Below are positions 51,223 to 51,972 of a stretch of 52,904 nt of DNA, piece by piece. Origin of the DNA: a virus (lineage: Duplodnaviria > Caudoviricetes). Made by a program: the position numbers and the translations under genes. The stretch covers positions 1 to 52,904 of IMG/VR virus record IMGVR_UViG_3300014838_000028; one strand, given 5' to 3'. The stretch's first letter is position 1; the number at the start of each line of letters is the position of its first letter. The notes beneath the pieces were generated by a model, which saw only the letters and a list, made by a program, of their open reading frames with translations, was not told the DNA's origin and did not search any database.

Positions 51223-51972
51223 GGAAGGCGAAAGGCCCGGAAGGGCCAGAGCAGACAGAGTCAGGGTCAGCCCCTCACCTTCCAAGGGAAGGGAACCCGG
51301 AGACGGGGACCCGACCAAGGGTCCGGGATAGCCGGGCAACGGAGGCTAGGTCGGAGGTCAGACCGCATAAACCTCAAAGACCAGGTTGGGCGCCTTGGCA
51401 AGCCCAGGAGGAAACTCTCAAGGAATTGAGAAGTCACCGTTGCGATTAGCGCACATCAAAAGTGATCGCAGGCGAGCCACCCGAAAGGGTGCCGCTAAAC
51501 CGGTGCCGGCAGGAGGAAAGGCCGGTTTGATACTTCGGTGTTCTGCGGGACCCTCCAAAGGAGCTTCAGCCCTTAGAGCTAAAAATGCGAATTTCTAGCA
51601 CGGTTATTCGGGCGGTTCTCCTGAAGGTGCCACTTGCATACTAACCAACGCAAGCTTGCACATTCGCCCCACCGGGACGAATTCCTAAGCAAGTCTCTAC
51701 AGTGTTAGCCACTGACCAACCACCACCTACAGGCAACCCGCCACACCCTGACCGTTAGATAAGTCGATTTCCCTTAGCACTGTTGACGAACCCTGGTACA
51801 AGGGTAGATGCAATGCCACACAAGCCGTTTCATGGCTTGCCCCTGGTGCTTGTAGGTTGCATCGCTGTGGATTTGCGGTATGTCCCGCAGGCCCCACAGC
51901 AAACGCCATAACCGGTCCCACTGATCCTCACGAGGGGAGGGAGCAACTAGTTATGGCGTTTGCTGTAGGGCC
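51223..51972 (+). ncRNA. Candidate large structured ncRNA or leader (~750 nt)
   Basis: Many hairpins with GNRA/UUCG loops and G-U pairs that work on the + strand, long-range pairings, no ORF with phage-like features. Confidence 0.65.

What the first reader, a model, noticed from the sequence alone, without database searches (positions are those of the whole stretch)
51223..51972. Candidate ~750-nt pseudoknotted phage ncRNA
Seen: after the prim-pol terminator and a TGCTACCAT extended -10, ~750 nt are packed with hairpins carrying RNA-type tetraloops on the + strand: GGCCC-GGAA-GGGCC (51234-47), CCCG-GAGA-CGGG (51296-307), GAG-GAAA-CTC (51408-17), CACCC-GAAA-GGGTG (51478-91), GATAC-TTCG-GTGTT (51529-42). 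The stem ACAGTGTTAG (51699-708)/TTAGCACTGT (51774-83) encloses a C/A-rich loop with two long-range partners. ACCTACAGGCA (51725-35) can pair with TGCTTGTAGGT (51847-57), which lies inside the GATGCAA/TTGCATC stem, and ACCCTGAC (51745-52) can pair with GTCAGGGT (51260-67). Both would be pseudoknots. Known: phages carry large structured RNAs of unclear function (GOLLD, ROOL). I see no RNase P, tmRNA or group I/II intron hallmarks. Inference: this may be an undescribed large RNA class made from a strong early promoter.
Basis: partly seen in the sequence, partly recalled or inferred. Interest (0 to 1): 0.85.

Follow-up and report, generated by a model that had tools for sequence, protein, structure and literature searches.

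The report
Expressed, tetraloop-rich orphan phage RNA
A gene-free stretch behind the primase-polymerase gene of an uncultured peat phage most likely encodes a real, heavily folded non-coding RNA of about 500-570 bases that turns up in peat RNA libraries, matches no known RNA family and has no relatives yet, so its job is unknown.

Summary
Observation confirmed; interpretation partly supported. The strongest sequence signal is eight GNRA/UNCG tetraloop hairpins with at least 4 bp on the + strand. Shuffles average 0.72 and 0 of 1000 reach 8; 0 of 67 other 750-nt tiles reach it; the - strand has none. All six frames carry all three stop codons, and the two longest ORFs have no protein relatives.

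Contigs from three peat metatranscriptomes, 100% identical, cover only 51293-51780 and a second element at 52144-52400. Rfam gives nothing.

Not supported: the 750-nt extent, since no RNA contig covers 51781-51972. The two pseudoknots and the enclosing stem are at chance level and disfavoured by the fold ensemble. The "strong promoter" has no support. Folding z-scores do not single the region out.

No homologue was found anywhere I could search, so covariation is untested.

This scan has reported large phage RNAs of the same kind on other DNA, but no family link is shown here.

The second element gives a 257-nt head-to-tail joint in one RNA library, which suggests a circular RNA.

The parts
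50866..50899 (+). Hairpin after the prim-pol stop codon, followed by TTTT; a terminator-like boundary of the upstream operon
   Evidence: Inverted repeat I10 (11-nt arms, 91% complementary). Only 4 T follow it, so the terminator scan does not list it.
50921..51052 (.). Repeat-rich spacer: two roughly 31-nt direct repeats about 72 nt apart, and a perfect tandem 12-mer at 51029-51052. This may be an origin or operator region. It is not part of the RNA.
   Evidence: Family D3 (tandem 12-mer, 100% identical). The roughly 31-nt repeats were read by eye. No RNA contig lies here.
51207..51215 (+).
   Evidence: The sequence is present. There is no -35 at a sigma-70 spacing (read; TTGACC placed), and the scan lists no promoter here.
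51221..51285 (+). Probable 5' closing helix (8 bp, 51221-28 with 51278-85) enclosing the GGAA hairpin 51234-47
   Evidence: Pair probabilities 0.94 and 1.00; inverted repeat I6; MFE fold.
51234..51594 (+). Purine-rich, T-poor 5' domain carrying all eight tetraloop hairpins with stems of at least 4 bp (51234-47, 51296-307, 51407-18, 51416-31, 51478-91, 51529-42, 51540-51, 51583-94) and two copies of AGGAGGAAA
   Evidence: 8 observed against 0.72 in shuffles; 0 on the - strand. (G 33%, A 27%, T 14%; AGGAGGAAA occurs twice, 0 of 1000 shuffles reach 2).
51293..51780 (+). Stretch held as 100% identical contigs in three peat RNA libraries. The strand is inferred from the tetraloops, not from the contigs.
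   Evidence: table 8: X6 51293-51443 and 51440-51741; X4 51542-51758; X8 51509-51780.
51594..51759 (+). Predicted 3' domain: an interrupted 24-bp long-range helix (51594-51629 with 51724-51759) capped by three hairpins.
   Evidence: five helix segments with probability 0.75-1.00. The stem 51699-708/51774-83 has probability 0.00.
51790..51889 (+). Hairpins without tetraloops (51790-805; 51821-39; 51810-76). They are not covered by RNA contigs and are probably spacer or processing region.
   Evidence: Absence of contig cover is not evidence of absence.
51890..51972 (+). 23-bp stem with one mismatch and no U-tract. It is a candidate double-strand-specific (RNase III-type) processing site or boundary between the RNA and the downstream small ORF.
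   Evidence: Inverted repeat I1 (96% complementary). Pair probabilities about 1.0. Equally stable on both strands (z -4.04 and -4.05).

Best explanation
Shown:
- The ORF-free stretch after the prim-pol gene carries a strand-specific excess of RNA-type tetraloop hairpins.
- Its central 490 nt (51293-51780) is present, letter for letter, in peat RNA libraries in which the flanking genes were not assembled.

Inferred:
- It is a discrete, stable, trans-acting non-coding RNA of about 500-570 nt, from roughly 51221 to 51785.
- It is made from the + strand, like every gene of this phage.
- It folds into a compact particle held together by GNRA-tetraloop contacts.
- It is separated from the downstream message at or before the 23-bp stem (51890-51972), probably by a double-strand-specific RNase.

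In kind it works like the large ornate RNAs of phages and prophages (GOLLD, ROOL). The folded RNA body itself is the product, acting as a scaffold, decoy or catalytic core during infection or lysogeny. It is neither a message nor a simple antisense regulator.

Its molecular target is not known.
For: - Tetraloop hairpins: 8 on the + strand against 0.72 expected, with 0 of 1000 shuffles and 0 of 67 other tiles reaching 8; 0 on the - strand.
- + strand z-scores are lower than - strand z-scores in all five 200-nt windows of 51201-51800.
- All six frames hold TAA, TAG and TGA; the longest open run is 228 nt.
- The 88-aa and 70-aa ORFs have no relative and no called counterpart among 5.8 billion proteins.
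- Other ORF-poor stretches of the window (7400-11800) are filled with chains of small + strand ORFs, unlike this one.
- 8 of 22 listed runs are peat RNA libraries holding 0.11-0.28 of the sampled words.
- In 3 of 3 RNA runs laid, contigs cover only 51293-51780 and 52144-52400 out of 50500-52904, with no differing letters.
- No Rfam family matches at gathering score on the whole window, nor at E <= 10 on 50800-52600 or on 51190-51810 beyond chance rows with E >= 1.
Against: - No homologue was found, so there is no covariation support for any helix.
- Folding z-scores are ordinary for this genome. 51221-51790 alone gives only z = -2.76.
- Contigs cannot show strand, ends or abundance, and RNA libraries can hold DNA (caveats printed).
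- The three RNA studies may belong to one campaign and habitat.
- No promoter or intrinsic terminator was found by scan, so a separate transcription unit is not shown.
- The proposed function rests on analogy only.
Confidence: 0.5

Rival explanations
1. It is a long structured 5' leader acting in cis. It would control translation or stability of the 49-aa Cys/His ORF (51999-52148) and the genes behind it, and the RNA-library signal would be the stable leader fragment.
For: It lies directly upstream of an ORF with a ribosome-binding-like site. No terminator separates them.
Against: None of the RNA contigs in the three runs reaches the ORF (weak, since contigs may break). About 500 nt with eight tetraloop hairpins is far more than known leaders need. 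No riboswitch or leader family matches.
Confidence: 0.15
2. It is an origin-associated transcript. Transcription next to the repeat-rich spacer behind the prim-pol gene would activate or prime replication, as with ColE1 RNA II or the T4 origin R-loops (both recalled from general knowledge). The RNA loop at 51730-48 would pair with the tandem 12-mers at 51029-52.
For: It sits at the end of the replication module (Pol A, SNF2 helicase, PD-(D/E)XK nuclease, AAA_24, DUF669, prim-pol). Iteron-like repeats and a 19-nt, 84% complementarity between 51025-43 and 51730-48 were found.
Against: By my own estimate that complementarity is expected about 0.2 times by chance in 1.8 kb. The repeats lie upstream of the RNA, not under it. 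Priming RNAs do not need many GNRA hairpins. The same nucleotides are predicted to pair inside the RNA.
Confidence: 0.1
3. It is a catalytic or processing partner of the second element. RNA1 would help to cut out and circularise the 257-nt RNA at 52144-52400, or both would be processed from one precursor by the same unknown activity.
For: Both elements, and only they, appear in the same RNA libraries. One contig joins 52400 back to 52144. A 15-nt, 80% complementarity links 51943-57 to 52135-49, across the 5' border of the circle (I7). No known self-cleaving ribozyme is present to explain the circle.
Against: There is no match to group I or group II introns, either strand. The order and borders also do not fit what I recall of circularly permuted group II introns. 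The 360 nt between the two elements is not covered by RNA contigs. The joint was seen in 1 of 3 RNA runs only.
Confidence: 0.1
4. It is a protein or ribosome sponge. Its GGA- and AGGAGG-bearing loops would titrate a CsrA-type regulator or the anti-Shine-Dalgarno end of 16S rRNA.
For: There are 16 GGA in 51223-51600 against a mean of 5.4 (maximum 12) in other tiles. AGGAGGAAA occurs twice, one copy in a 10-nt hairpin loop.
Against: The GGA count is not above dinucleotide shuffles (16 against 12.6; 112 of 1000 shuffles reach 16). Both AGGAGG copies have an internal 8-bp partner at 51616-23. The host, and whether it has CsrA, are unknown.
Confidence: 0.05
5. It is a non-functional spacer. On this view the hairpins are fortuitous or are remnants of a decayed element, and the RNA-library contigs are nuclease-resistant debris of read-through transcripts or carried-over DNA.
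For: It is a single sequence with no conservation data. Its z-scores are ordinary. Contig data cannot exclude DNA carry-over (caveat).
Against: An eight-fold, strand-specific tetraloop excess is hard to get by chance. Within 50500-52904 the RNA contigs cover just the two structured elements in three libraries. The sequence is identical across the four runs laid.
Confidence: 0.07
6. It is protein-coding: one or more of the small overlapping ORFs (85, 88 or 70 aa) would be real genes.
For: ORFs of 85, 88 and 70 aa exist on the + strand.
Against: They overlap one another in different frames. No relative and no called protein was found for the 88-aa and 70-aa ORFs. All frames carry all three stop codons. 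To my eye their translations are Arg/Gly/Pro/Glu-rich, as expected of non-coding G+C-rich DNA; that expectation is general knowledge, not a test.
Confidence: 0.03

Closest known systems
ROOL and GOLLD RNAs (large ornate RNAs of prophages and phages; cryo-EM multimers in PMC12286853, of which I saw the search listing and abstract only)
   Same: It is carried by a phage, is 500-800 nt long, is non-coding and is packed with hairpins. No protein partner is known. It is present as RNA in environmental samples.
   Different: There is no match to either Rfam model even at E <= 10. No tRNA genes are nearby. Multimer formation is untested. Only one sequence is known, against hundreds for those families.
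Other large phage RNAs noted earlier in this scan (e1-5524974; the Polynucleobacter-1-related RNAs e1-5825851 and e1-5338226). These are unchecked AI notes.
   Same: They are gene-free gaps of 330-550 nt in uncultured phages, next to DNA-metabolism genes. They are intricately folded, absent or nearly absent from Rfam, and some were seen in RNA samples.
   Different: Those are from freshwater jumbo or T4-like phages and have many homologues with conserved folds. This one is from a roughly 53-69-kb peat phage, has none, and shows no Rfam RF01718 match among the rows. No shared words were found.
Group I and group II introns, including circularly permuted group II introns that make RNA circles (PMC8637638; search listing and abstract only)
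   Same: It is a large RNA with several GNRA tetraloops. A neighbouring element gives a head-to-tail joint in RNA.
   Different: No Rfam intron model matches on either strand. No gene is interrupted. The borders of the circle do not carry the splice-site letters that I recall for either intron group. The large RNA lies 360 nt upstream of the circle and not directly at its borders.
Candidate structured RNAs of viruses mined from IMG/VR (PMC10690425; I read passages)
   Same: The data source (IMG/VR intergenic regions) and the aim are the same.
   Different: That survey kept only motifs of 29-151 nt that matched at least three distinct regions. A singleton of about 500 nt could not have been reported there. 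Its supplementary tables were not open to me.

Membership tests
GOLLD / ROOL (Rfam families) | Significant match to the family covariance model | tested here: not met
   cmscan found no hit at gathering score on the whole window. No GOLLD or ROOL row appears at E <= 10 in 50800-52600 or 51190-51810.
GOLLD / ROOL (Rfam families) | Frequent neighbourhood of tRNA genes in phage or prophage DNA (feature recalled from the literature) | tested here: not met
   ARAGORN finds 0 tRNA or tmRNA genes in the 52.9-kb window.
Group I intron | Match to the Rfam intron model; interruption of a host gene | tested here: not met
   No row. The prim-pol ORF ends with its own stop codon and a hairpin, and the flanks do not form one ORF.
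Group II intron (normal or circularly permuted) | Match to the Rfam models of domains 1-4 or of domains 5-6 | tested here: not met
   No row on either strand. By eye, the hairpin around 51471-51496 holds an AGC and can be drawn with a 2-nt bulge.
RNase P RNA / tmRNA | Match to the Rfam models; tRNA-like domain and tag frame for tmRNA | tested here: not met
   (no row); ARAGORN finds none.
Polynucleobacter-1-related large phage RNAs (Rfam RF01718; lead from earlier scan notes) | Match to RF01718 | tested here: not met
   No RF01718 row at E <= 10.
CsrB/RsmZ-type protein sponge | Many GGA motifs displayed in hairpin loops, above background | tested here: inconclusive
   16 GGA against a shuffle mean of 12.6, with 112 of 1000 shuffles reaching 16. 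Several sit in loops. Whether the host has CsrA is unknown.
Large structured non-coding RNA (the general kind) | No coding capacity | tested here: met
Large structured non-coding RNA (the general kind) | Strand-specific signs of RNA structure beyond chance | tested here: met
   tetraloop hairpins; + strand lower than - strand. Energy z-scores alone are not distinctive.
Large structured non-coding RNA (the general kind) | Present as RNA | tested here: met
   Contigs from three RNA libraries. Strand, ends and level are not shown.
Large structured non-coding RNA (the general kind) | Covariation in homologues | not testable with these tools

The most novel reading that the evidence does not exclude
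The 1.3 kb behind the prim-pol gene is a phage 'RNA island' making two abundant protein-free products. The first is a founding member of a new family of ornate, tetraloop-packed RNAs of about 550 nt. The second is a DNA-encoded 257-nt covalently closed circular RNA. That circle would be cut out inside the last sense codon of a micro-ORF and sealed without any known ribozyme or intron, possibly with the help of the large RNA.
Probability: 0.3. Interest if true: 0.85.

Novelty: new variant of a known kind. Interest (0 to 1): 0.6.

Why it matters
Large ornate RNAs of phages are few, and none has a known function. A further unrelated example would widen that set. This one comes from a peat phage that may infect Acidobacteriota, and it is visible in environmental RNA libraries. 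It would also give a compact, tetraloop-rich target for structure work.

If the neighbouring 257-nt head-to-tail joint reflects a true circle, the locus would be a rare case of a DNA-phage-encoded circular RNA with no recognisable ribozyme. That would make the question of how bacteria or phages circularise RNA directly testable.

Tried and rejected
Homologue hunt (all negative):
- blastn 'distant' of 50860-52500 against 50,697 phage records found no match.
- Prim-pol peptide patterns in IMG/VR gave 0 relatives from 30 pattern matches.
- Prim-pol protein search: 34 proteins had E <= 0.001. The window's own protein is one. One relative is 80% identical, on a 1285-nt contig I could not fetch. The rest are <= 37% identical.
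- A metagenome scan with the prim-pol alignment kept 80 loci, best 48% identical. blastn and nhmmer of 50860-52500 against them found nothing beyond 15-23-nt chance matches.
- Pol A in IMG/VR gave 49 loci, all but one <= 29% identical (the exception is a 92-residue piece at 36%). nhmmer of the three sub-regions against all 129 loci and the rest of the window found nothing.
- Four exact 17-19-mers were scanned in IMG/VR: 0, 0, 4 and 5 hits. The 9 hits extend only 18-21 nt, so they are chance matches.
- Prim-pol in GTDB genomes kept 80 loci, best 39% identical.
- blastn of 51200-52480 against 401 Acidobacteriota genomes gave only 5 short hits with E of 0.006-0.01 per genome, as chance predicts.
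- A 30-nt hit in one Actinomycetota MAG lies in a repetitive gene, not in a CRISPR array.
- A single-sequence covariance model of 51399-51560 found only itself in the window plus 199 loci, and matched 0 of 151 genomes of the family of G001 (that answer itself warns that an empty result shows nothing).
- Look-ups in the scan's own index by place and by sequence found nothing outside this window.

RNA-library cover: parts of 50500-52904 without RNA contigs (the prim-pol end, 51781-52143, and everything after 52400) are not evidence of silence. Runs with small word shares that I did not lay say nothing about habitat.

Ideas rejected:
- Stop-codon reassignment.
- CRISPR spacer match.
- CsrA sponge as the leading reading.
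- Bulge-helix-bulge, hammerhead or HDV-type borders for the 257-nt element. This was by eye and by Rfam: no support, but not a rigorous exclusion.
- A never-ending ORF on the circle, because stop codons are visible by eye in the sequence. I did not tabulate this by frame.
- RtcB, RNA ligase or reverse transcriptase in the window: none appeared among the 30 ORFs scanned with Pfam. The window's other ORFs were not scanned, and one search lists a 69,260-nt contig for the same protein, so further DNA may exist.

Literature: searches returned no paper describing this RNA. That covers only the held library and those terms. Supplementary tables of PMC10690425 were not available.
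Full report
**Setting**

The window is an IMG/VR viral record of 52,904 nt, classed as linear and about 71% complete. All credible genes lie on the + strand. The finding sits at the end of a replication module:
- family A DNA polymerase, SNF2 helicase, PD-(D/E)XK nuclease, AAA_24 ATPase and a DUF669 protein;
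- a prim-pol at 50105-50860 carrying PF09250 and PF08708.

Behind it, 50861-52482 holds no ORF longer than 88 aa on the + strand. This includes a 49-aa Cys/His-rich ORF at 51999-52148. Other ORF-poor parts of the window (7400-11800) are chains of small + strand ORFs, so this gap is unusual for the phage.

The phage is an orphan. Its portal is at most 26% identical to that of any cultured phage. Its Pol A is at most about 29% identical over any long match to anything in IMG/VR. The prim-pol has one relative at 80% identity and then nothing above 48%. The best prim-pol relatives in genomes are mostly in Acidobacteriota MAGs. That gives only a weak host guess.

**Observation**

I tested the most RNA-like feature, hairpins capped by GNRA or UNCG tetraloops:
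- With stems of at least 4 bp, there are 8 on the + strand of 51223-51972.
- The mean of 1000 dinucleotide shuffles is 0.72 (sd 0.82), and none reaches 8.
- None of 67 other 750-nt tiles of the window reaches 8; their maximum is 3.
- The - strand has 0.
- Two pairs of hairpins overlap, so at most six can coexist. All lie in 51234-51594, a purine-rich, T-poor stretch (G 33%, A 27%, T 14%).

Folding energy is less telling:
- The 750 nt give z = -4.17 on the + strand and -4.42 on the - strand (20 shuffles).
- 51221-51790 gives z = -2.76 (100 shuffles).
- 200-nt windows elsewhere in the phage are often as low: the mean is -0.98, and 39 of 337 have z <= -3.
- The + strand is nevertheless lower than the - strand in all five windows of 51201-51800.

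**Not coding**

All six frames hold all three stop codons, and the longest open run is 228 nt, so no single reassignment opens a frame. The 88-aa and 70-aa ORFs have no relative. They were not even called as proteins in the collection of 5.8 billion sequences.

**Expression**

Of the 22 sequencing runs listed, 20 hold part of 51100-52500, and 8 of those are peat RNA libraries.

I laid one DNA run and three RNA runs from three studies; these may belong to one campaign. The results were:
- In all three RNA runs the contigs are 100% identical to the window.
- They cover only 51293-51780 (X6 51293-51443 and 51440-51741; X4 51542-51758; X8 51509-51780) and 52144-52400 (X4) or 52159-52309 (X8).
- The DNA run holds pieces across the region.

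Contigs cannot give strand, ends or level, and uncovered parts prove nothing. Still, only the two structured elements were assembled within the stretch laid. That pattern is what a stable RNA would give and carried-over DNA would not.

**Extent and fold**

The RNA-supported piece ends near 51780. It ends in a 23-bp stem with one mismatch (pair probabilities about 1.0). I read that stem as a boundary or a double-strand-specific processing site.

In the thermodynamic ensemble the 5' end closes with an 8-bp helix, 51221-28 with 51278-85 (p = 0.94). The 3' part forms an interrupted 24-bp helix, 51594-51629 with 51724-51759 (five segments, p = 0.75-1.00).

- The enclosing stem has probability 0.00, and GATGCAA/TTGCATC has 0.14.
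- Against 60 shuffles, the 8-bp pairing and the 10-bp stem are at chance, and the 11-bp pairing is borderline.
- The partner of the 11-bp pairing lies outside the RNA-supported piece.

The pseudoknots are therefore possible but unsupported.

**Promoter**

TGCTACCAT is present. The nearby TTGACC is only 11 nt from the -10-like hexamer (read; TTGACC placed). The consensus scan finds no promoter there. How the RNA is made, whether from its own promoter or by processing of read-through, is open.

**Identity**

No Rfam family reaches its gathering score in the window. With permissive filters, only chance rows with E >= 1 appear. ARAGORN finds no tRNA or tmRNA. The RNA therefore fails membership of GOLLD, ROOL, group I and II introns, RNase P, tmRNA and the Polynucleobacter-1 motif. 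It resembles the first two in kind.

No homologue was found in any of the following:
- cultured phages;
- IMG/VR;
- 80 metagenome loci;
- 401 Acidobacteriota genomes by blastn;
- 199 loci and 151 genomes by a single-sequence covariance model;
- the scan's own index.

Covariation, the decisive test, is therefore untested.

A published IMG/VR survey kept only motifs of 29-151 nt that matched at least three distinct regions (PMC10690425, passages read). It could not have reported a singleton of this size.

**Function**

I commit to this reading: a stable, self-folding, trans-acting RNA body of about 500-570 nt, GOLLD/ROOL-like in kind, released from its transcript near the 23-bp stem. My confidence is 0.5 that this is the right category. 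The target is unknown.

The rivals are a cis leader of the micro-ORF, an origin-linked transcript, a processing partner of the second element, a protein or ribosome sponge, fortuitous structure, and small proteins. For the origin reading there are iteron-like repeats and a 19-nt, 84% complementarity between 51025-43 and 51730-48; by my estimate this is expected about 0.2 times by chance. For the sponge reading, GGA motifs are not above shuffles, though AGGAGGAAA occurs twice.

No RNA ligase, RtcB or reverse transcriptase was seen among the 30 window ORFs scanned.

**Second element**

One RNA contig (X4, 271 nt, depth 22.9) runs from 52400 straight back into 52144 with no shared letters at the joint. 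The DNA run bridges both borders in the linear order. This fits a 257-nt circular RNA, or less likely a tandem form.

Other points about the element:
- It starts inside the last sense codon of the 49-aa ORF.
- It folds into two multibranch domains whose closing helices bring the ends together (z = -3.2 as a circle on the + strand).
- No self-cleaving ribozyme or intron model matches.

This lies outside the finding I was given, and it rests on one contig in one library.

**Verdict**

This is a real and unusual structured RNA locus with expression evidence but no relatives. It is a new variant of the known kind 'large ornate phage RNA'. Interest 0.6.

Noticed in passing
window 52144-52400: In RNA run X4 a 271-nt contig (depth 22.9) reads from 52400 straight back into 52144, a 'goes back 257' joint with no shared letters. 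DNA-run contigs bridge both borders linearly. This suggests a 257-nt circular (or tandem) RNA. It starts inside the last sense codon of the 49-aa ORF. It folds into two multibranch domains closed by 52144-49/52253-58 and 52262-71/52389-98. No ribozyme or intron family matches.
   Followed up: partly
window 50921-51052: This is a repeat-rich spacer between the prim-pol terminator hairpin and the RNA. It holds two roughly 31-nt direct repeats about 72 nt apart and a perfect tandem 12-mer (51029-51052). The 12-mer is complementary to 51733-43 inside the RNA. It may be an origin or operator array.
   Followed up: partly
window 51405-51414, 51510-51519, 51616-51623: The Shine-Dalgarno-like CAGGAGGAAA occurs twice, 105 nt apart. 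Both copies can pair with one TTCTCCTG. It is unclear whether this is an internal switch or chance.
   Followed up: partly
window 50105-50860 (protein P0001): The protein collection lists this exact prim-pol on a contig of 69,260 nt, longer than the 52,904-nt record, so about 16 kb more of this phage may exist elsewhere. The only near relative (80% identity) sits on a 1285-nt contig.
   Followed up: no
window 50105-50860 against loci L132-L211: The best genomic relatives of the prim-pol (up to 39% identity) are mostly in Acidobacteriota or Terriglobia MAGs from soil and peat. The portal is nearest, at 26%, to Mycobacterium and Microbacterium phages. The host phylum is therefore open.
   Followed up: partly
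window 1105-1644: A 179-aa ORF with a Fic/DOC family match (PF02661, E 1.2e-07) lies among the small genes at the left end.
   Followed up: no
window 49121-49531: A 136-aa ORF lies between the AAA_24 and DUF669 genes and has no Pfam match. Its N-terminal motif reminded me of LAGLIDADG homing endonucleases. That resemblance is recalled, not tested.
   Followed up: no
window 5301-5500 and 23501-23700: These are the most negative 200-nt folding z-scores on the + strand in the part scanned (-7.2 and -7.0, 15 shuffles each). They are lower than anything in the finding itself. I did not examine them.
   Followed up: no
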